A stretch of DNA of 9,631 nt from a virus (lineage: Duplodnaviria; Heunggongvirae; Uroviricota; Caudoviricetes), in the IMG/VR virus record IMGVR_UViG_2778261515_000017, positions 1 through 9,631 of that record; one strand, written 5' to 3'. Positions 3,266 through 9,631 of this stretch are shown in pieces. The number at the start of each line of letters is the position of its first letter. The first letter of the stretch is position 1. The position numbers and the translations under genes were made by a program. Below the pieces are notes generated by a model, which had not been told where the DNA came from, ran no database searches, and worked only from the letters and a program-made list of their open reading frames with translations.

Positions 3266-4207
3266 TTACATAGATGTTTCGTTTAATTCTTCCCGACGAA
3301 CGCTGTAAACGTCGGTGGCTTTTGCCAGCAGTTCGTCATCATCTGAAAGTTTTTGTGCAATGTATTTGTAAGCCTTATCCAGTTCGGAGACAGTGCTGTA
3401 ATTCATCGCTGCGCTGGTAAAGGCCATCAGCATTTCTTCTGGATCACGGCTATCCGCTTTACGCGTTTGCTCATCAGGCTTTTTCACTGTTTTAGCGTTG
3501 ATCAGACTATTAATTCCCGCAGCCGTAGTTGTTTGCGGAGTAATGTCTCGCTCAACGCGCGGTGCCGTTTCCTGTAATTCGTCAGGTGTATAGACGCCCA
3601 TGATTACGTCAGGACAGTGCAAGCGAGACCAGCGTTTTGTCGCAAGGTATGCGAGTTGTTGTTTCGGATCGCTGGCCCAAAGTGTGGAGTTTCTTACCTG
3701 TGCCTGAGACAGCATTAACTCGAGCACTCGAGGTTGATCCTCTCCCTTCATGGTTGCCCATACGCGAACACCGCAGCCTTCTTCGTCTTTTATAGTCCAG
3801 CCTGGTGCGATATACGGATTGCCGTTTTTGGATGTTTTCTCAACAAACTTACCGATCACGCGTTCCCACGGCCCGAACCACTCGTAGTTGATGCGATCTT
3901 TTGTTGGCGACATTGTTGAGATAACTGCGTTTACTAATTGGGCTTCATAACCTAGCGTGCCGTTCACAACATGGGTTTTCTGAGCCACGGCAAACGGGTT
4001 CATTCCCCACTGCGCAGCCTGCATTGCCACGGCCATGCAATCAGCTGGTTTCCCGGCGAGGTGCGCCGGTACCGTTACGCGGCTTTGCGCCATTACCTCG
4101 GCGAATTTCATCAGTTGGTTCAAGCCGTCTGGGCTGAAAATAGTTGCAGCAGTGCCAGCGATTGCTGTGTCTACTGGTGCGTTGATGTTTGCGATGTTGT
4201 TGCTCAT
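3266..4207 (-). CDS. recT: RecT/Redbeta-family single-strand annealing protein
   Basis: 313 aa. Shares an ERDITP segment with lambda Bet as I recall it, and sits immediately downstream of an exonuclease gene with a 4-nt ATGA start/stop overlap, the typical exo-SSAP pair. The family call has not been checked by search. Confidence 0.72.
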   Translation of the reverse strand: MSNNIANINAPVDTAIAGTAATIFSPDGLNQLMKFAEVMAQSRVTVPAHLAGKPADCMAVAMQAAQWGMNPFAVAQKTHVVNGTLGYEAQLVNAVISTMSPTKDRINYEWFGPWERVIGKFVEKTSKNGNPYIAPGWTIKDEEGCGVRVWATMKGEDQPRVLELMLSQAQVRNSTLWASDPKQQLAYLATKRWSRLHCPDVIMGVYTPDELQETAPRVERDITPQTTTAAGINSLINAKTVKKPDEQTRKADSRDPEEMLMAFTSAAMNYSTVSELDKAYKYIAQKLSDDDELLAKATDVYSVRREELNETSM

Positions 4208-5025: not shown

Positions 5026-5321
5026 GCCGCGTCCCTCTGCCCATCAATCTGATCAGCCAGATCCCAGCGGGCGATAATTGCCATTGCCTCGCGCCGGTAG
5101 GCATCCATTAGTTCTTCGAACTCAGGGCTGTCTTTAGCGGCCTCCAGTACTTCCTGGCGAACGCCTTTAACTGTTACAACGTCGAAAGTTGATGCCAGTT
5201 GATGAAGCCGGATACTCTCAATCAGTTCAACTTGTCGGTCATATAGCTGTTCTGACAGGCGGTAGTCCTTGTCGAATGCCAGCATGATTTTTTGAAGATT
5301 TTTCTGCTGATTAACGTTCAT
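5022..5321 (-). CDS. Hypothetical protein (99 aa), unknown function, second gene of the pL-type operon
   Basis: ORF with a strong SD (GGGAGG) 7 nt upstream of ATG 5321 (MNVNQQKNLQ...). Its stop overlaps the exonuclease start (ATGA). No recognisable motif. Confidence 0.55.
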   Translation of the reverse strand: MNVNQQKNLQKIMLAFDKDYRLSEQLYDRQVELIESIRLHQLASTFDVVTVKGVRQEVLEAAKDSPEFEELMDAYRREAMAIIARWDLADQIDGQRDAA

Positions 5322-5323
5322 TA

Positions 5324-5476
5324 TCAGCCCTCCCATATCTCGTTATCGTTGGCCACATCGCGAGCTTCTTTGCTGACGAAAGCCCACTTAATGCCTTCCT
5401 GTAAGGTGCGGAACTTCCAGCTCATGAATCCGCATGCAGTAACGCAGTACCAACCGTTGATGATTTTCCACTGCAT
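5324..5476 (-). CDS. Small ORF (50 aa, Trp/Cys-rich), first ORF downstream of the pL-type promoter; candidate Kil-like or small regulatory peptide
   Basis: ATG 5476 with SD GAGGT 8 nt upstream; translation MQWKIINGWYCVTACGFMSWKFRTLQEGIKWAFVSKEARDVANDNEIWEG. TGA stop lies 2 nt before the next ATG. Below the ORF-track length cutoff; supported only by SD and operon context. Confidence 0.35.
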   Translation of the reverse strand: MQWKIINGWYCVTACGFMSWKFRTLQEGIKWAFVSKEARDVANDNEIWEG

Positions 5477-5495
5477 AACTTGTTACCTCGGTCTG

Positions 5496-5572
5496 TTACC
5501 GTTGAGGTAATAATTATGCGTATATGGTTTGATGTCAATAGATATGAGTTAAAAAAATTACCCGTTAGGTAA
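5496..5572 (-). promoter_or_regulatory. pL-type promoter flanked by two operator palindromes (OL region)
   Basis: Operators TTACCGTTGAGGTAA (5496-5510) and TTACCCGTTAGGTAA (5558-5572), centres 62 bp apart. On the - strand, a perfect -35 TTGACA (complement of 5533-5538), 17-nt spacer, -10 AATTAT (complement of 5510-5515) whose last base is the first base of the downstream operator. Predicted TSS near 5503. Confidence 0.55.
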
Positions 5573-5582
5573 TCGAATAGGC

Positions 5583-5609
5583 AATAAAAAAGCCGCCATA
5601 AGGCGGCTT
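5583..5609 (-). terminator. Rho-independent terminator downstream of the repressor gene (tImm-like)
   Basis: 8-bp GC-rich stem AAGCCGCC/GGCGGCTT (5590-5597 with 5602-5609), 4-nt loop, followed on the - strand by a U-tract (complement of the A-run 5583-5589). No T-tract follows on the + strand, so it is unidirectional. Confidence 0.7.
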
Positions 5610-5629
5610 ACTTACTGAAAAATATGGTT

Positions 5630-6214
5630 TTATTGTTTGTTTTTTTCGTTCTGGTTGATGACAAATTCAATGTAACTTTCGATCTTTGCTTTCTCGGTTT
5701 CGGGTAACAATGCGTAGCGCGAGCGGTCATAGTTGATAGTCGCGGGGTCGTGCGGGTGAATCAGTAATTCATAGCCGTGACGCCCGAATGCGGATGCAAC
5801 ATTCTCCAGGGTGGAAATGGAAACGCTAACCTCATTGTTTAACAGGCGGCTGATTGTCACCTGGGCGACGCCGGATGCGCGGTGAAGTTTTCCCTGAGTT
5901 GAAAGGTCGCGGCTTTCGCTCATCCAGCGTTCCAGGTTGTGAGCCGCCAGCTGACCAATGTCGCTTGGGCCGACAGGCTGAAAACCTTCCTGAGAAAGCG
6001 AGCGATCGATATCAAGCCAGTTACGGGGTTTATTGGCGGCAGCTTCAATTTTTCGCGCAACCTGGTCGCCGATAACCTTCTTGCCAAGAGCCCAGCGGTT
6101 TACCAGATTTGCCTGAGTTCCAAGTTTTTCTGCCATCCGCGTCTGAACACCATTGAATTCACGGTCGATCAAGTCGTTGAGATTTTGCCTGCGGACGTCC
6201 TGGATACTTTTCAT
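5630..6214 (-). CDS. Prophage repressor at the cI position: dual-HTH protein (CII-like N-terminal HTH plus XRE-type HTH), with no LexA/S24 peptidase domain evident
   Basis: 194 aa. ...TRMAEKLGTQANLVNRWA... resembles the lambda CII HTH; ...GKLHRASGVAQVTISRLLNNEVSVSISTLENVASAFG... is XRE-like. Divergent from the Cro-like gene across an operator-rich region and followed by a strong terminator, which is the lambda immunity-region topology. Weak or absent SD, possibly leaderless like cI from pRM. Confidence 0.65.
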   Translation of the reverse strand: MKSIQDVRRQNLNDLIDREFNGVQTRMAEKLGTQANLVNRWALGKKVIGDQVARKIEAAANKPRNWLDIDRSLSQEGFQPVGPSDIGQLAAHNLERWMSESRDLSTQGKLHRASGVAQVTISRLLNNEVSVSISTLENVASAFGRHGYELLIHPHDPATINYDRSRYALLPETEKAKIESYIEFVINQNEKNKQ

Positions 6215-6269
6215 TTTCTGGAAAATCGCCTCATATATGAATCAGTAGATGATTCAATTTAAAGCAATA

Positions 6270-6343
6270 TTACCCAACAGGTAAATGCACCCCATAGGTA
6301 ACTATCCTTGATTTTTGTTACCTTATGGGTGAATATTTATTAT
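6270..6343. promoter_or_regulatory. Divergent OR-type operator region between the repressor and Cro-like genes, with a pR-type promoter
   Basis: Operators TTACCCAACAGGTAA (6270-6284), degenerate GCACCCCATAGGTAA (6287-6301) and TTACCTTATGGGTGA (6318-6332). Rightward promoter candidates: -35 TTGTTA (6315-6320), 17 nt, -10 TATTAT (6338-6343); or -35 TTGATT (6308-6313), 17 nt, -10 GAATAT (6331-6336). Either overlaps the 6318-6332 operator. No convincing leftward (pRM-type) hexamers found. Confidence 0.5.
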
Positions 6344-6368
6344 CTGAAATAAATATCAGGCAATAGCT

Positions 6369-6599
6369 ATGAGCGATAACGGACATTTCGATTTCAAAAA
6401 GCACTGGCTTGCACTTACTCCGGATGAGCGTGAAGCCTTCGCACAGGAAGCCGGAACGACGAGTCACTATATCCATACTCACTTAACAGGTAAGCGCAAA
6501 ATGCCAGGTAAAGTATTGATGAATGGGCTTTTTAAAGCCTGTAAAACAAGACAATGGCTGCGCTCAAAAGCAGAACTGGCATACTTCTTCTACTCATGA
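6369..6599 (+). CDS. Cro-like small HTH regulator (first gene of the rightward operon)
   Basis: 76 aa. HTH-like segment FAQEAGTTSHYIHTHLTGKRKMPGKVLMNGLFKAC. Divergent from the repressor gene; its promoter overlaps an operator palindrome. Confidence 0.55.
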   Translation: MSDNGHFDFKKHWLALTPDEREAFAQEAGTTSHYIHTHLTGKRKMPGKVLMNGLFKACKTRQWLRSKAELAYFFYS

Positions 6600-6620
6600 T
6601 ATCCAGCCACAACCCTCTGT

Positions 6621-6645
6621 AGACCGCCATCCGGCGGTCTTTTCA
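6621..6645 (+). terminator. Rho-independent terminator after the Cro-like gene (tR1-like)
   Basis: Stem AGACCGCC (6621-6628) / GGCGGTCT (6633-6640), loop ATCC, followed by TTTTC. Confidence 0.5.
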
Positions 6646-6749
6646 TATCTATTCGTACCTCAAAGGTAATAAAAAACCAAATATGGTTGATCTTTTTTTT
6701 GTGTCAGCACAAAATAACCGTAATCCCAATACTAATAACAGGGCTTACC

Positions 6750-6950
6750 ATGGAAATCATTACACGTATTGATGCCGCAAAGCGCGGACTTAAACGCTAC
6801 TACACCGGAAAACCATGTAAGCACGGACATGACAGTGAACGCTGGGTTTACAACGGACACTGTGTTGAGTGCACCATGGAATCAAACCGTCGCATCAGGG
6901 CAGAGATTAAGCAGATCATGATTAATTCCTCCCCACAACACTCAAGCTGA
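6750..6950 (+). CDS. Small Cys/His-rich putative zinc-binding protein (66 aa) at the cII position
   Basis: ATG 6750 with SD CAGGG; MEIITRIDAAKRGLKRYYTGKPCKHGHDSERWVYNGHCVEC... with a C-x-H-x-H ... C-x-x-C pattern. The track ORF starting at 6687 uses a TTG and is rejected as an N-terminal extension. Confidence 0.5.
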   Translation: MEIITRIDAAKRGLKRYYTGKPCKHGHDSERWVYNGHCVECTMESNRRIRAEIKQIMINSSPQHSS

Positions 6951-6965
6951 TAGCGGAGATTAATC

Positions 6966-7799
6966 ATGAGCAGACATGCAACAGATTGGGCCTGGGAGAC
7001 AGATCCAGGTAGCTCGTCATTAAAGCTCATACTGCTCTCGATGGCTGACAGAGCCGATGAATATAACCTCTGCTATCCCAGCATAGAACGCCTAGTTAAA
7101 GACACTTGCCTGAATAAAAAAACCGTACAGGCCGGGCTTATATCGCTCATGAAAATGGGGCTTATTTCAGATACCGGAGAGAGAAAGGGAGCGACGAAAA
7201 GAGTGCGGGTTTTCTCTCTTAATATAACCAAAAACGGGAACATTAAAGGCAACCGGGAAGGGGGTAACGATCCCAAAAACGGTAATGTTACCGAAAACGG
7301 GAATATACCCAAAAACGGGATGTTGAATGATCCCAAAAACGGGATGTTGAATGATCCCAAAAACGGGATCCAGAACCAGTCATATAACCAGTCATTTAAC
7401 CAAGAGAGGGAGAGCAGGACAAAAATCGGGGATTCCGTGCCCCATGACCCCGGCGCAAACAACGCCGTGATGAATAACTTTGTTCCTCCAGGTGGGCCAG
7501 GGCAATTAGGCAAATTTGTCATGCATGAACAATGGCAGCCATCAGATGACTTTCTTCGGAAAAGCTCATTGCAGGGAATCTACCTGGGCAGTCTGCCAAC
7601 GGCACAGGAACTTGCAGAGTTCAGAATTTACTGGATGGCTGAGGGTAAGGCATACCATCAGGCGCAGTGGGAGCAGAAGCTGGCAAGGCGCATCCAGTTC
7701 TGTAGACAGAAATCAGGTGAAGTCAGAAAGAGCCTTGACTGGCATAACACTGACTGGATAGATGAGGTGTGGGATGAAATCAACTCCAGAACTTCTTAA
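6966..7799 (+). CDS. Replication initiation protein (O-like): N-terminal winged HTH, central iteron-encoded repeat linker, C-terminal DnaT-like domain
   Basis: 277 aa. N-terminus LKLILLSMADRADEYNLCYPSIERLVKDTCLNKKTVQAGLISLMKMGLI is typical of phage replication-initiator HTH domains. The central NDPKNGML repeats are encoded by the DNA iterons. Immediately upstream of the P homolog. SD GGAG 7 nt upstream. Confidence 0.75.
   Translation: MSRHATDWAWETDPGSSSLKLILLSMADRADEYNLCYPSIERLVKDTCLNKKTVQAGLISLMKMGLISDTGERKGATKRVRVFSLNITKNGNIKGNREGGNDPKNGNVTENGNIPKNGMLNDPKNGMLNDPKNGIQNQSYNQSFNQERESRTKIGDSVPHDPGANNAVMNNFVPPGGPGQLGKFVMHEQWQPSDDFLRKSSLQGIYLGSLPTAQELAEFRIYWMAEGKAYHQAQWEQKLARRIQFCRQKSGEVRKSLDWHNTDWIDEVWDEINSRTS
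7228..7405. repeat. Origin-of-replication iterons inside the O-like gene, plus downstream short direct repeats
   Basis: Six copies of the core CC(A/G)AAAACGG at about 7229, 7273, 7291, 7308, 7332 and 7356. The last three are spaced exactly 24 bp apart and form the palindrome ATCCC-AAAAAC-GGGAT, resembling lambda ori iterons. Followed by AACCAGTCAT direct repeats at 7374-7383 and 7386-7395. Four GATC sites fall within 7269-7370. Confidence 0.65.
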
Positions 7800-8556
7800 T
7801 GAGTACTATCGCTTTCGTGGTGGGCATGACCACTCGACGGTGGTTGCTTCTGCTGACGATGAAAGGGCAAAGAAGGAGCAGGTTGCAAGAATTTTCAACG
7901 AAATGTTTGTCCAGTTGCAGGCTGCATTTCCAGGCAGCATCGCTGCTATCAGCGAACAGGGAAAGCTAAACGAATTTCGAAAACAATGGATGCTTGCGTT
8001 TCTGGAGAATGGGATCACTACAATGGAACAGGTTAACGCTGGTATGCGCCACGCCCGCGCCAGTGAATCTCCGTTCTGGCCGTCGCCTGGGCAATTCATC
8101 AAGTGGTGCAAAGACAGCAAGATGGTTCTTGGCGTCACCATTGACGATGTGATGGCGGAGTTTCATCGGTACAGCAAGGAAAAAAGTTTATATCCTGGTG
8201 GTCCAGAAAGATTCCCGTGGCGACATCCGGTTATGTACTGGGTTGTATGTGATACCCGCCGCGCAATGTATCAGCGCCAGCTTAGCGAGATTGAGGTTGA
8301 GAAACACGCGCGCAGGCTGCTCGATGATTGGGCGAAAAAGGTGGCTTCCGGACAGCAGATACCCGATCCGGTGATCAGCATACAGGCAAAGCCAGAACCC
8401 ATGAGTACGCCTCCGGACACAGGGAGAGACGTTTACCATCCACCAGGGCGAAGTTTCGGGTGCATGCCTAACGCCGCCACCCTGGGGGGAATAACACCGG
8501 CGCAGTGGCTGATGGAGGAATACAGGCGGGGAAAGGCGGCAGGATTTATCAAGTAA
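7774..8556 (+). CDS. P: Replication protein P homolog (DnaB helicase loader)
   Basis: Contains ...FLENGITTMEQVNAGMR...FWPSPGQF..., near-identical to the lambda P segment FRENGITTMEQVNAGMR...FLPSPGQF as I recall it. ATG 7774 with SD GAGG; 26-nt overlap with the end of the O-like gene. Confidence 0.85.
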   Translation: MKSTPELLNEYYRFRGGHDHSTVVASADDERAKKEQVARIFNEMFVQLQAAFPGSIAAISEQGKLNEFRKQWMLAFLENGITTMEQVNAGMRHARASESPFWPSPGQFIKWCKDSKMVLGVTIDDVMAEFHRYSKEKSLYPGGPERFPWRHPVMYWVVCDTRRAMYQRQLSEIEVEKHARRLLDDWAKKVASGQQIPDPVISIQAKPEPMSTPPDTGRDVYHPPGRSFGCMPNAATLGGITPAQWLMEEYRRGKAAGFIK

Positions 8557-8560
8557 TACC

Positions 8561-8581
8561 AGCGCGATAGCGCATTTTTTT
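8561..8581 (+). terminator. Weak terminator-like hairpin plus T-run just after the P stop codon
   Basis: Short stem AGCGC / GCGCA around loop GATA, then a T-run 8575-8581. The stem is only about 5 bp, so this is marginal. Confidence 0.3.
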
Positions 8582-8593
8582 ACGTCTCAATAA

Positions 8594-8670
8594 TTACCTA
8601 TTGGGTAATAAAATATTCTAAACTCTATTGATTTCGTGTCTTATGTGGTTTTTAATTACCTCAAGGGTAA
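8594..8670 (+). promoter_or_regulatory. Third operator-flanked promoter (P3) upstream of the DUF1064-like gene; same geometry as the pL-type cassette
   Basis: Operators TTACCTATTGGGTAA (8594-8608) and TTACCTCAAGGGTAA (8656-8670), centres 62 bp apart. -35 TTGATT (8628-8633), 17-nt spacer, -10 TTTAAT (8651-8656) ending on the first T of the downstream operator. Gap from upstream operator to -35 is 19 nt, as in the pL-type cassette. Confidence 0.5.
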
Positions 8671-8673
8671 ATC

Positions 8674-9021
8674 ATGAGAAAACAGATACAGGCTCTTGGT
8701 CGACTCAAAACAGGCCAGATGAACAAAACAGAATCTGCGTATTGCCAGCACCTTGAGCAGCGTAAACGCGCAGGGGAAATCGCCTGGTATCGATTCGAGG
8801 GTATCAAGCTGCGGTTAGCCGACAACACGTTCTATACGCCCGATTTTGCTGTGATGCTCGCCACCGGAGAGATGGAACTGCACGAAGTGAAAGGGGGATT
8901 CTGGACCGACGACGCCAGGGTGAAAACCAAAGTAGCCGCAGATCAGTATCCGTTCCGAATCATCGGGGTAACGGTTAAACCAAAGAAAGCAGGTGGTGGC
9001 TGGAACATCGAAGAATTCTGA
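8674..9021 (+). CDS. DUF1064-family phage protein (possible PD-(D/E)XK-like fold)
   Basis: 115 aa. ...NKTESAYCQHLEQRKRAGEIAWYRFEGIKLRL...YTPDF...ELHEVKG... matches the DUF1064 signature as I recall it. Its start codon lies 4 nt downstream of an operator palindrome. Confidence 0.6.
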   Translation: MRKQIQALGRLKTGQMNKTESAYCQHLEQRKRAGEIAWYRFEGIKLRLADNTFYTPDFAVMLATGEMELHEVKGGFWTDDARVKTKVAADQYPFRIIGVTVKPKKAGGGWNIEEF

Positions 9022-9082
9022 ATCGACGATCTTTTTAGTTATCAATGTAATCAATAAGTTATGTGGATAAGCGAGGGTAAAG

Positions 9083-9631
9083 ATGGAAAGTATGGCTGAA
9101 GGTACGATCAAAGATTTAGTGGCATCAGGACATGCGTTAGCTGACGACATGACAGGTGCACCATCCGTGCTTGTTCGCTGTTTGGCAACGCAACTGGAAG
9201 TACAACTGGTGCGTGCTAATGCGCTGGCCGAAGACCGCATCACCACCGAACACTGTCAGGCGCTGGCGCTGGAGAACGACACCGCGCGTCAGGTGCAGGT
9301 GTTTGAAGCCGCCTGTCAGTCGGGATGGGGCGGTAAACCGGAAGTACAGACCATTCGTCGTCTGGTGACCGAAAGTGAAGTGGCGGTGGCGGGGAACAGT
9401 AAATTCCGCTTCGTGGGGGCTGATGCCTTCTCGCCAGACGAACTGCGCACCGATTTGTTCAGCGATGACGGGGACGGTTATGTCGACCGCGTGGCGCTCG
9501 ATGCCGCCCTGCTGGAAAAACTCCAGGCTGTCGCTGAACACCTTCGGGAAGCCGAAGGCTGGGAATGGTGCGCCGGACGCATGGAGCCTGTCGGTGAGTG
9601 CCGTGAGGATGCCGGAACATACCGCTGTCTG
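9083..9631 (+). CDS. Unknown acidic protein, 3'-truncated by the window edge (at least 183 codons with no stop); GC-rich relative to the rest of the window
   Basis: ATG 9083 with SD GAGGG 5 nt upstream; the frame stays open to the window end. Translation MESMAEGTIKDLVASGHALADD... is protein-like, whereas the overlapping minus-strand track ORFs look like GC-driven artefacts. No recognisable family. Confidence 0.45.
   Translation, partial: MESMAEGTIKDLVASGHALADDMTGAPSVLVRCLATQLEVQLVRANALAEDRITTEHCQALALENDTARQVQVFEAACQSGWGGKPEVQTIRRLVTESEVAVAGNSKFRFVGADAFSPDELRTDLFSDDGDGYVDRVALDAALLEKLQAVAEHLREAEGWEWCAGRMEPVGECREDAGTYRCL

What the first reader, a model, noticed from the sequence alone, without database searches (positions are those of the whole stretch)
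8561..9631. Third repressor-controlled promoter is a geometric copy of the pL-type cassette and drives DUF1064 plus an unknown gene
The region upstream of 8674 repeats the pL architecture exactly: two operators with centres 62 bp apart, -35 TTGA-type hexamer 19 nt after the upstream operator, and a -10 whose last T is the first base of the downstream operator. The sequences align (TCTATTGA ... TTACCTCAAGGGTAA versus TCTATTGA ... TTACCTCAACGGTAA on the - strand at pL). In lambda the post-P (nin) genes are reached by N-dependent readthrough from pR. Here they appear to have their own immunity-controlled promoter, preceded by a possible terminator. That would make the downstream genes an independently derepressed module; its cargo includes an uncharacterised gene.
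Basis: partly seen in the sequence, partly recalled or inferred. Interest (0 to 1): 0.65.

Follow-up and report, generated by a model that had tools for sequence, protein, structure and literature searches.

The report
Repressor-gated promoter cassette before resolvase operon
The operator pair ahead of the DUF1064 gene is real and is a conserved copy of the leftward early promoter cassette, but it sits in an epsilon15/phiV10-type prophage whose repressor has sites before nearly every operon, so it is one ordinary, partly annotated member of a dispersed repressor regulon.

Summary
Two perfect TTACC-N5-GGTAA operators lie at 8594-8608 and 8656-8670, with centres 62 bp apart. TTGATT starts 19 nt after the first operator. 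TTTAAT ends on the first T of the second. The whole unit aligns without gaps to pL on the minus strand.

The window is an epsilon15/phiV10-type (Uetakevirus) prophage at guaA, not a lambda-like N/Q phage. Its repressor is a homologue of the SPC32H Rep protein, a tetramer with no protease domain that is inactivated by an antirepressor.

The cassette keeps identical spacing in every relative examined, with Rep identity from 42 to 100%. It always precedes DUF1064 or a RuvC-type resolvase. DUF1064 here carries a T7 endonuclease I-like PD..ExK motif. The epsilon15 GenBank record already marks the upstream operator as a repressor site. The same motif also precedes the terminase, portal, tailspike, lysis and int genes, and a further unit lies at 6655.

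P3 is therefore one of about nine control regions, not "the third". Promoter activity remains inferred: the -10 lacks the -11 A, and the upstream hairpin has only a 4-bp stem. The "unknown gene" is a chimera with a conjugative-plasmid ParB-like gene fragment.

Two unexplained extras emerged: hypervariable centres in the distal operators, and a second dyad motif.

The parts
8562..8581 (+). Weak hairpin GCGC-GATA-GCGC, then A, then T7, just after the stop codon of the P-like gene (8554-8556). Putative leaky intrinsic terminator that insulates P3.
   Evidence: Folds at about -7.4 kcal/mol. Below the terminator scan's 5-pair rule. The stem and T7 are invariant while the loop varies across lineages. 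The phiV10 record annotates the orthologous site as a putative rho-independent terminator. It aligns with the rep terminator ahead of pL.
8594..8608 (.). Distal operator (O-up), TTACCTATTGGGTAA, about -69 to -55 relative to the inferred start site.
   Evidence: Perfect motif. The orthologous site in epsilon15 is annotated 'protein_bind: repressor'. Half-sites are invariant in 64 sequences sampled independently of the motif. The centre is hypervariable.
8609..8627 (+). 19-nt A/T-rich stretch between O-up and the -35 (TAAAATATTCTAAACTCTA). Possible UP-element position.
   Evidence: The length is invariant at 19 nt in 78/78 P3 cassettes, and 52/54 in pL. Mostly conserved. UP-element function is an inference.
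8628..8633 (+). -35 hexamer TTGATT, within the conserved CTATTGA shared with pL.
   Evidence: TTGA is invariant in all lineages.
8643..8650 (+). ATGTGGTT, the right half of a dyad-like element AACCATAT.ATGGTT centred at about -19.5 in the spacer. Function unknown.
   Evidence: Conserved in P3 across lineages. The inverted half sits at the same position in pL, 5516-5529. It recurs near operators before the portal, tailspike and lysis genes. Inverted repeat I1.
8651..8656 (+). Putative -10 TTTAAT, 17-nt spacer, last T shared with O-down. 5/6 to consensus but T instead of A at -11.
   Evidence: Not called by the scan because of the -11 A rule. Same register as pL AATTAT. Other lineages have TTAAAT/TAAATT, TATATT or CAGTAT here.
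8656..8670 (.). Proximal operator (O-down), TTACCTCAAGGGTAA, overlapping the -10, the inferred start (about 8663) and the Shine-Dalgarno.
   Evidence: Perfect motif. 63/64 are perfect in the motif-independent sample. The centre is purine-rich and less variable than the O-up centre.
8664..8668 (+). Shine-Dalgarno-like AGGGT inside O-down, 5-6 nt before the ATG at 8674.
   Evidence: Read directly from the sequence. The ATG lies 3 nt after O-down in 60/78 cassettes.
8674..9021 (+). DUF1064 protein (115 aa): PD-(D/E)XK nuclease, probably a T7 endonuclease I-like Holliday junction resolvase.
   Evidence: Pfam PF06356, 26.2 bits. PHROG 190 'Holliday junction resolvase', E 1e-43. Weak profile match to T7 endonuclease I over the YTPDF..E.KG.W motif, E 0.4. 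E20, P56, D57, E71 and K73 are invariant. A RuvC gene replaces it at the same position in other lineages.
9083..9631 (+). Chimeric ORF, open to the end of the window. A phage-derived N-terminus is fused from about 9219 to an interior part of a conjugative-plasmid ParB/RepB/Spo0J-family gene.
   Evidence: No Pfam hit. PHROG 492 covers residues 3-51 and PHROG 7783 covers 45-181. Bases 9219-9631 are 99.3-99.5% identical to more than 5000 plasmid records. It is a 588-aa ORF in strain rl0044, flagged by PGAP as an incomplete pseudogene and followed by ardA.
5496..5572 (-). Paralogous pL cassette: O-up 5572-5558, -35 TTGACA 5538-5533, -10 AATTAT 5515-5510, O-down 5510-5496. The rep terminator (5609-5590) precedes it.
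5630..6214 (-). Repressor (194 aa), homologue of Salmonella phage SPC32H Rep. No S24 peptidase domain.
   Evidence: PDB 5d50, E 4e-42 over residues 1-190. Pfam shows HTH families only. 100% identical to the phiV10 repressor.
6621..6715 (+). A further unit of the same design: terminator 6621-6640, operator GTACCTCAAAGGTAA 6655-6669, -35 TTGATC 6687-6692, -10 CAAAAT 6710-6715, ahead of the small gene at 6750 and the replication genes.
   Evidence: In SPN1S, epsilon15 and BUCT554 the -10 again ends on the T of a TTACC half-site.

Best explanation
P3 (8562-8673) is a Rep-gated early promoter cassette and a paralogue of pL. It starts the distal early-right operon of an epsilon15/phiV10-type prophage. 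That operon opens with a junction-resolving nuclease (DUF1064, or RuvC in sister lineages). It continues through a variable set of accessory genes, here a plasmid-derived ParB-like fragment and, in the matching strain, ardA. In that matching strain (rl0044) and in phiV10 it ends with a small protein of a family labelled transcriptional regulator (PHROG 536), just before the packaging genes. Proposed mechanism, step by step. (a) Shown: two perfect immunity-type operators lie 62 bp apart (about 5.9 helical turns, so on the same face). They bracket a TTGATT-17-TTTAAT core. The proximal operator covers the -10, the start site and the Shine-Dalgarno. (b) Inferred: in the lysogen one Rep tetramer, which per the SPC32H literature carries two DNA-binding pairs formed in trans, bridges both operators. 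It occludes RNA polymerase at O-down and possibly the UP-element position at O-up. (c) Inferred from the SPC32H system: DNA damage removes LexA from the ant promoter, Ant dismantles Rep tetramers, and P3 fires together with pL, pR and the other operator-bearing promoters, with no cascade needed to reach these genes. (d) Inferred: the conserved GCGC-N4-GCGC-A-T7 hairpin lowers read-through from the replication operon, so P3 sets most of the expression. With only a 4-bp stem it is probably leaky.
For: Geometry and statistics. Conservation in samples chosen without the motif: all 7 phages picked by Rep similarity (42-100% identity) carry the hairpin, both perfect operators, CTATTGA and the -10 register. 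63 of 64 unique phiV10-type sequences picked by DUF1064 homology have both operators perfect, with an invariant -35, -10 and hairpin amid variable neighbouring bases. Spacing is invariant: gap 47 nt and -35 offset 19 nt in 78/78 P3 cassettes and 52/54 pL cassettes. The cassette stays constant while the replication genes upstream and the nuclease downstream are exchanged. In a divergent lineage P3 and pL share the same -10, CAGTAT, in this register. The repressor is a full-length homologue of SPC32H Rep. Rep is reported to bind DNA as a tetramer with trans-paired DNA-binding domains, one tetramer sufficing for repression, and to be dismantled by Ant (PMC9638917; PMC9986798). The epsilon15 GenBank record annotates the orthologous upstream operator as a repressor site. 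Overexpressing the identical repressor of phage ZX5 cut holin transcripts by 99.97% (PMC9782041; identity). A LexA-box-like CTGTATAAATACACAG sits beside the small divergent gene next to the tailspike gene in phiV10.
Against: There is no transcript or binding data for this site. I could not read the two primary SPC32H papers or the epsilon15 genome paper, so Rep binding to TTACC-N5-GGTAA rests on operator position and on database annotation. The core promoter is unremarkable: 9/12 to consensus, T at -11 in the 17-nt register, and not called by the consensus scan, which finds as many sites in shuffled sequence (5 found against 5.8 expected). An inferred start at about 8663 leaves only an 11-nt leader with the Shine-Dalgarno at its 5' end. 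The hairpin is too short to count as a terminator by usual criteria, so DUF1064 may also be expressed by read-through. A 62-bp loop is tight, and bridging by one tetramer is conjecture. A second conserved dyad in the spacer suggests another factor acts here.
Confidence: 0.65

Rival explanations
1. The operators are real Rep sites, but P3 is not a promoter. Rep bound at the pair, together with the weak hairpin, acts as a roadblock or insulator. It stops residual transcription from the replication operon entering the accessory genes in the lysogen, or it serves as an auxiliary site for long-range contacts with OL and OR. After induction DUF1064 is expressed by read-through.
For: The -10 is poor (no -11 A) and the scan does not call it. 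The hairpin is too weak to terminate fully. The very short leader is awkward for a P3 transcript. The tetramerisation domain of SPC32H Rep was classed with domains that induce DNA looping in other regulators.
Against: CTATTGA and the hexamer ending on the operator's first T are conserved in the same register as in pL across all lineages. The pL copy is called by the promoter scan at 10/12. In one lineage P3 and pL share the identical -10, CAGTAT. A roadblock would not need a fixed 19-nt distance to a TTGA motif.
Confidence: 0.15
2. P3 is an active promoter, but its main regulator is not Rep alone. The TTACC-N5-GGTAA sites and/or the AACCATAT.ATGGTT dyad in the spacer are bound by the Cro-like protein (6369-6599) or another phage or host factor. 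P3 would then be a delayed or activator-dependent promoter rather than one that is simply derepressed.
For: The second dyad is conserved at about -19.5 in both pL and P3. It recurs near operators at the portal, tailspike, lysis and tR-region promoters, and none of the ATRTGGTT hits in the window falls in the OR region. The weak -10 fits a need for activation. The Cro-like protein matches a family labelled transcriptional repressor (PHROG 35).
Against: Enrichment of the second motif is modest (7 found against 2.6 expected in phiV10), and its position relative to the putative -10 differs between promoters. Nothing links it to any protein.
Confidence: 0.15
3. P3 is a non-functional relic of a duplication of the pL region, or a chance resemblance.
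For: It is clearly paralogous to pL, so a duplication did happen at some point.
Against: It is retained with exact spacing and perfect half-sites in lineages whose Rep proteins are only 42% identical, and in 63/64 close relatives, while adjacent bases vary freely. The chance expectation of perfect sites is about 0.03 per genome.
Confidence: 0.03

Closest known systems
Annotated repressor-binding sites of Salmonella phage epsilon15 (GenBank AY150271.2 / NC_004775.2), in particular 35906-35922
   Same: This is the orthologous position: between the replication gene and the junction resolvase. It has the same 17-bp ATTACC-N5-GGTAAT site. The record also marks such sites at OL and before the terminase, portal and tailspike genes.
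   Different: Only the upstream operator is annotated there. The downstream operator (35969-35983), the promoter hexamers, the 62-bp pairing and the paralogy with pL are not annotated. The gene downstream is RuvC rather than DUF1064. No sites are annotated in the phiV10, SPC32H or E. coli records.
Rep-Ant lysis-lysogeny switch of Salmonella phage SPC32H (PDB 5D4Z, 5D50)
   Same: The window's repressor aligns over its full length (E 4e-42). SPC32H has the same genome layout and the same P3 cassette sequence type. Rep is described as a tetramer that is disassembled by Ant.
   Different: The proteins are only about 42% identical. According to PMC9986798 the structural mechanism of repression by Rep has not been extensively characterised. 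I found no description of this promoter in the text I could read.
Lambda pL/OL and the N-dependent nin region
   Same: Operators overlap an early promoter. The genes after the replication genes include a junction resolvase (Rap and RusA in lambdoid phages; own knowledge).
   Different: The repressor shows no S24 protease domain in Pfam. The operators are 62 bp apart and flank the promoter, rather than forming a tandem array. Expression is proposed to start at a dedicated promoter, not by antiterminated read-through.
Dispersed-operator phage repressors: P1 C1, N15/PY54 CB, mycobacteriophage L5 gp71 (own knowledge; PY54 switch paper PMC4488713 listed, L1 repressor paper PMC1934351 abstract)
   Same: One immunity repressor has operators at many operons around the genome, so several lytic units are repressed directly.
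   Different: No sequence relationship was tested. P1 and L5 operators are asymmetric, and L5 'stoperators' block elongation. Here the sites are palindromes, and at pL and P3 they form a fixed pair around the promoter.
T7 endonuclease I (PDB 1M0D, 1FZR), for the DUF1064 product
   Same: Shares the catalytic PD..E.K segment YTPDF..E.KG.W..D.R.K. PHROG 190 is labelled Holliday junction resolvase.
   Different: The match is weak (E 0.4). The structure model had low confidence (pLDDT 58.6), so the fold was not verified.

Membership tests
Operator of the epsilon15/SPC32H-type Rep repressor | A Rep homologue is encoded in the same element | tested here: met
   5630-6214(-) matches PDB 5d50 Rep, E 4e-42, residues 1-190. 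It is 100% identical to the phiV10 repressor.
Operator of the epsilon15/SPC32H-type Rep repressor | Same sequence motif as the sites flanking the repressor gene (OL, OR) | tested here: met
   TTACC-N5-GGTAA is perfect at 5496, 5558, 6270, 8594 and 8656, with 1-2 mismatches at 6287 and 6318.
Operator of the epsilon15/SPC32H-type Rep repressor | Conserved at the orthologous position in relatives, independently of how they were found | tested here: met
   7/7 phages chosen by Rep similarity. 63/64 sequences chosen by DUF1064 homology.
Operator of the epsilon15/SPC32H-type Rep repressor | Physical binding by Rep (EMSA, footprint, ChIP) | not testable with these tools
   The primary papers are not held. 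Only the GenBank annotation of epsilon15 supports it.
Sigma-70 promoter | -35 and -10 hexamers close to consensus with a 16-18 nt spacer, including A at -11 and T at -7 | tested here: inconclusive
   TTGATT (4/6), 17 nt, TTTAAT (5/6), with T at -11. Not reported by the scan, whose hit count equals that of shuffles. Sister lineages have TAATT-type variants (TAAATT, TATATT) or CAGTAT with A at -11.
Sigma-70 promoter | Mapped transcription start | not testable with these tools
   No transcript data are available.
Intrinsic (rho-independent) terminator | G+C-rich stem of at least 5 pairs followed by a U-tract | tested here: not met
   The stem has 4 G-C pairs and folds at about -7.4 kcal/mol. U7 is present. 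The scan does not call it. The stem never varies, so covariation says nothing.
Lambda-type CI / N-antitermination early control | LexA-like self-cleaving repressor (S24 peptidase domain) | tested here: not met
   Only HTH families are found in the repressor. It is homologous to the Ant-controlled Rep.
DUF1064 / PD-(D/E)XK junction-resolving nuclease | Pfam PF06356 above the gathering score | tested here: met
   26.2 bits against 24.7.
DUF1064 / PD-(D/E)XK junction-resolving nuclease | Catalytic E..PD..(D/E)xK residues conserved | tested here: met
   E20, P56, D57, E71 and K73 are invariant in 22 sequences. They align with the T7 endonuclease I motif.
DUF1064 / PD-(D/E)XK junction-resolving nuclease | Restriction-endonuclease-like fold | tested here: inconclusive
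   The AlphaFold model has mean pLDDT 58.6. No fold search was run on it.

The most novel reading that the evidence does not exclude
Uetakevirus genomes are wired as a series of paralogous 'terminator - distal operator - promoter - proximal operator' cassettes (pL, the unit at 6621-6715, and P3), plus single-operator late promoters. Each paired cassette is clamped by one Rep tetramer bridging two palindromes exactly 62 bp apart. One antirepressor pulse would then open all lytic operons at once, with no antitermination or activator cascade. The distal operators would be under diversifying pressure: 26 centre alleles in 64 near-identical phages, the most variable spot in 3.5 kb. A second dyad at -19.5 would mark an undescribed co-regulator.
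Probability: 0.3. Interest if true: 0.5.

Novelty: new member of a known kind. Interest (0 to 1): 0.3.

Why it matters
If P3 works as proposed, the junction resolvase, the accessory genes and the last small putative regulator of epsilon15/phiV10-type prophages are switched on directly by loss of Rep. The accessory genes here include plasmid-derived material and, in the matching strain, the antirestriction gene ardA. These prophages are common in E. coli: 250 of 5426 complete genomes hold at least 80% of the 5300-9631 stretch. This gives a simple, testable picture of how a lambda-unlike temperate podovirus coordinates induction. It also provides a compact two-operator cassette for studying how the tetrameric Rep represses, which PMC9986798 says has not been extensively characterised. 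It does not change any general concept, because repressors with dispersed operators are well known.

Tried and rejected
(1) Literature. The SPC32H J Virol 2013 and PNAS 2016 papers and the epsilon15 genome paper are not held. The ZX5 paper, on a phage with the identical repressor, predicts four promoters but describes no operators. The SPC32H GenBank record has no regulatory features.

(2) Covariation between repressor type and operator sequence could not be used as a test. Rep proteins only 42% identical keep the same TTACC/GGTAA half-sites, and the segment NLVNRW, which I take to be the recognition helix, is also the same.

(3) Covariation in the hairpin: the stem never varies, so it is uninformative.

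(4) A minus-strand promoter-like site at 8642-8615 (AAGACA-16-TAGAAT) was rejected. It is not conserved outside the phiV10 type.

(5) Known RNA families: nothing relevant appears in Rfam even at E <= 1.

(6) The DUF1064 structure prediction gave low confidence (pLDDT 58.6), so no fold search was run. Sequence motifs, PHROGs and a PDB profile search were used instead.

(7) The apparent complementarity of the O-up centre TATTG with CAATA upstream does not hold in relatives and was treated as chance.

(8) A DnaA-box reading of the TGTGG(T/A)T motif was rejected. Only the copy at 9061-9069 (TGTGGATAA) matches the consensus.

(9) The conservation statistics from the pattern scan are circular for the half-sites. 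They were therefore repeated on samples chosen by protein homology.
Full report
WHAT THE WINDOW IS. The window is the left and central part of an epsilon15/phiV10-type (genus Uetakevirus) prophage integrated next to guaA in E. coli. It is 99.8% identical to strain rl0044, and its repressor is 100% identical to that of phage phiV10. The gene order is as follows:
- int at 1-1257.
- A leftward operon with a phosphatase, a methyltransferase, PerC-like and AlpA-like genes, RecT and an exonuclease.
- The repressor at 5630-6214(-).
- A Cro-like gene at 6369-6599.
- A small gene at 6750-6950.
- A DnaT/O-like gene at 6966-7799.
- A lambda-P-like gene at 7762-8556.
- DUF1064 at 8674-9021.
- An ORF that runs off the window from 9083.

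The repressor contains only HTH domains. It aligns end to end with the Rep protein of Salmonella phage SPC32H (PDB 5d50, E 4e-42). According to papers I could read, Rep is a tetramer whose DNA-binding pairs form between different dimers. One tetramer is said to suffice for repression, and the antirepressor Ant takes it apart (PMC9638917; PMC9986798). So this is not a lambda-type CI system. I did not search for N or Q homologues.

CHECK OF THE OBSERVATION.
- Perfect TTACC-N5-GGTAA sites lie at 8594-8608 and 8656-8670, and at 5558-5572 and 5496-5510. Both pairs have centres 62 bp apart.
- The motif is far above chance. With up to 2 mismatches there are 11 hits against 2.7 expected in the window. 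Perfect sites number 8 in phiV10 and 11 in epsilon15, against about 0.03 expected per genome.
- TTGATT (8628-8633) starts 19 nt after O-up. TTTAAT (8651-8656) shares its last T with O-down. pL has TTGACA, a 17-nt spacer and AATTAT in the same register on the minus strand.
- The two cassettes align without gaps from the hairpin and T-run to the proximal operator. Outside the operator half-sites 48 of 94 columns match, against 26.9 +/- 4.2 in shuffles, and no shuffle out of 20,000 reaches 48. pL is the best non-self match to P3 anywhere in the window.
- The paralogy includes the element in front. At pL this is the strong rep terminator (-18 kcal/mol). At P3 it is a short GCGC-GATA-GCGC hairpin followed by A and T7, at about -7.4 kcal/mol.

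COMPARATIVE EVIDENCE. I picked phages by repressor similarity rather than by the motif: phiV10 (100%), Tyrion (78%), BUCT554 (75%), BUCT711 (45%), and epsilon15 and SPN1S (42%). In all of them the gap between the last replication gene and the next gene holds the same unit. That unit is GCGC-N4-GCGC-A-T7, a perfect operator, (C/G)TATTGA, a hexamer ending on the first T of a second perfect operator, and then an ATG 3-5 nt later.

A pattern scan of viral contigs found the paired-operator unit in at least 120 stretches of DNA, mostly on contigs of about 40 kb. Many of those contigs carry two copies about 3 kb apart, which are pL and P3. Among 78 P3-type units the gap is 47 nt and the -35 offset is 19 nt in every case. 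For pL the figure is 52 of 54.

That scan required perfect half-sites, so I repeated the test on 64 unique sequences found through DUF1064 homology. In 63 of them both operators are perfect, and one has a single mismatch. The hairpin, T7, -35 and -10 do not vary, while nearby bases do.

The replication genes upstream differ between lineages (O plus P, a single initiator, or a methylase plus initiator). The gene downstream is DUF1064 in 59 cases, a RuvC-type resolvase in 19, and rarely something else. The cassette is thus a constant unit between exchangeable modules.

NOT THE THIRD BUT ONE OF MANY. The same operator sits right after the cro terminator (6655-6669). It is followed by TTGATC-17-CAAAAT, whose last T in SPN1S, epsilon15 and BUCT554 again begins a TTACC half-site. 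In phiV10 and epsilon15 the motif also lies immediately before the terminase, portal-operon, tailspike, lysis and int genes, at syntenic positions. The epsilon15 GenBank record already labels several of these as repressor-binding sites, including the upstream operator of the P3 orthologue at 35906-35922. Overexpressing the identical repressor of phage ZX5 reduced holin transcripts by 99.97% (PMC9782041). That fits control of late genes, whether direct or indirect.

HOW IT MOST LIKELY WORKS. These parts are shown: a conserved operator pair with fixed spacing brackets a conserved -35/-10 pair, and the proximal operator covers the -10, the expected start (about 8663) and the Shine-Dalgarno (AGGGT, 8664-8668).

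These parts are inferred. In the lysogen a Rep tetramer binds both operators. The 62-bp distance is about 5.9 helical turns, which puts them on the same face, and the invariant 19-nt distance from O-up to the -35 is not something RNA polymerase needs. Binding would block RNA polymerase. When LexA is inactivated, Ant is made and dismantles Rep, and P3 fires together with the other operator-bearing promoters. The short hairpin and T7 reduce, but probably do not abolish, read-through from the replication operon.

A LexA-box-like CTGTATAAATACACAG lies beside the small divergent gene next to the phiV10 tailspike gene. This is the kind of arrangement described for the ant gene of SPC32H (own knowledge of the Kim & Ryu 2013 abstract).

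WEAK POINTS. No transcript or binding data exist for this site. The core promoter is 9/12 to consensus with T at -11 and is not called by the consensus scan, which in any case finds no more sites than in shuffled sequence. Sister lineages have better hexamers (TAAATT, TATATT, CAGTAT). The leader would be only about 11 nt. The hairpin has only 4 pairs. Bridging over 62 bp by one tetramer is conjecture.

THE CARGO. DUF1064 passes the Pfam threshold and matches PHROG 190, 'Holliday junction resolvase', at E 1e-43. It has invariant E20, P56-D57 and E71-x-K73. A profile of it picks up T7 endonuclease I across the catalytic YTPDF..E.KG.W segment, but weakly, at E 0.4. A RuvC gene takes its place in other lineages. 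It is therefore very probably a junction-resolving nuclease. The structure model was too poor to confirm the fold.

The ORF at 9083 is a chimera. Residues 3-51 match a phage family. From about 9219 the DNA is 99.3-99.5% identical to the interior of a ParB/RepB/Spo0J-family gene found on thousands of conjugative plasmids. In strain rl0044 it is a 588-aa ORF that PGAP flags as an incomplete pseudogene, and it is followed by ardA. The operon there ends with a PHROG 536 'transcriptional regulator' just before a terminator, operators and the terminase gene.

UNEXPLAINED SIDE OBSERVATIONS.
(i) In an alignment of 64 phiV10-type sequences, the 5-nt centre of P3 O-up has 26 alleles. This is the maximum for any 5-column window in 3.5 kb (mean 2.3, 99th percentile 7). 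The highest single-column entropy is at 8601. The distal flank and the centre of pL O-up come next. The repressor gene, the OR sites and the proximal operators are much less variable.
(ii) A dyad-like element, AACCATAT.ATGGTT, sits at about -19.5 in both pL (left half conserved) and P3 (right half conserved). It recurs near the operators of the unit at 6655 and of the portal, tailspike and lysis promoters.

VERDICT. The cassette is a real, conserved regulatory unit, most likely a Rep-gated promoter (confidence about 0.65). It is a regular feature of a known phage group, partly annotated in epsilon15, and of a known kind: one immunity repressor acting at many operons. Interest is modest. The hypervariable distal operators and the second dyad are the parts most worth a follow-up.

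Noticed in passing
window 8599-8603, 8585-8593, 5563-5567, 5573-5581: The centres and promoter-distal flanks of the two distal operators are the most variable spots in 3.5 kb among 64 near-identical phages. The P3 O-up centre has 26 alleles, against a mean of 2.3 per 5-column window. Half-sites, promoter hexamers and the repressor gene are almost invariant. No explanation.
   Followed up: partly
window 8638-8650, 5516-5529, 6675-6688; phiV10 3305-3318, 20918-20931, 24736-24749: A second motif, ATRTGGTT (dyad AACCATAT.ATGGTT), lies about 30-45 nt from a Rep operator in every lytic promoter region except OR. It is centred at about -19.5 in both pL and P3. It may be a site for a second regulator. 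Enrichment is modest: 7 found against 2.6 expected in phiV10.
   Followed up: partly
window 6621-6715: There is another unit of the same design between cro and the replication genes: terminator, operator GTACCTCAAAGGTAA, TTGATC-17-CAAAAT. In this phage the proximal operator has degenerated. In BUCT554 it is 1 mismatch from the motif.
   Followed up: partly
window 9083-9631 (junction about 9219); L002 11784-14513: This is a chimeric ORF. A phage N-terminus is fused to an interior piece of a conjugative-plasmid ParB/RepB/Spo0J gene (99.3-99.5% identical to more than 5000 plasmid records). In strain rl0044 it is followed by the antirestriction gene ardA. The prophage has recently picked up conjugative-plasmid DNA.
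   Followed up: partly
window 8674-9021 versus L004 1616-2080 and L007 1336-1800: DUF1064 and a RuvC-type resolvase occupy the same slot behind the same cassette in different lineages (59 against 19 cassettes). DUF1064 carries a T7 endonuclease I-like YTPDF..E.K motif. The 'domain of unknown function' is probably a junction resolvase.
   Followed up: partly
window 7220-7402: Arrays of CCCAAAAACGGGA-type repeats (periods 18 and 24, up to 100% identical copies) and AACCAGTCATAT repeats lie inside the O-like replication gene. They are probably origin iterons, as in lambda O. They also produce spurious terminator-like hits on the minus strand.
   Followed up: partly
phiV10 (L009) 20800-20830 and 20497-20511; epsilon15 (L008) about 19845-19865: A LexA-box-like CTGTATAAATACACAG lies between the small divergent gene (PhiV10p24, epsilon15 gp19) and the tailspike gene. 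This may be the ant promoter. A perfect Rep operator in phiV10 sits in the loop of a 12-bp inverted repeat, GAGTGCTTATAT..ATATAAGCACTC.
   Followed up: no
L002 15786-15818; phiV10 87-119: Two adjacent operators lie inside the annotated 5' end of the terminase small-subunit CDS. The real start is probably the ATGATGCC immediately after them, so the annotated start looks too far upstream.
   Followed up: no
window 9061-9069: TGTGGATAA, a perfect DnaA-box consensus on the complementary strand, lies in the gap between DUF1064 and the next ORF. About 0.07 such matches are expected by chance in the window. Significance unknown.
   Followed up: no
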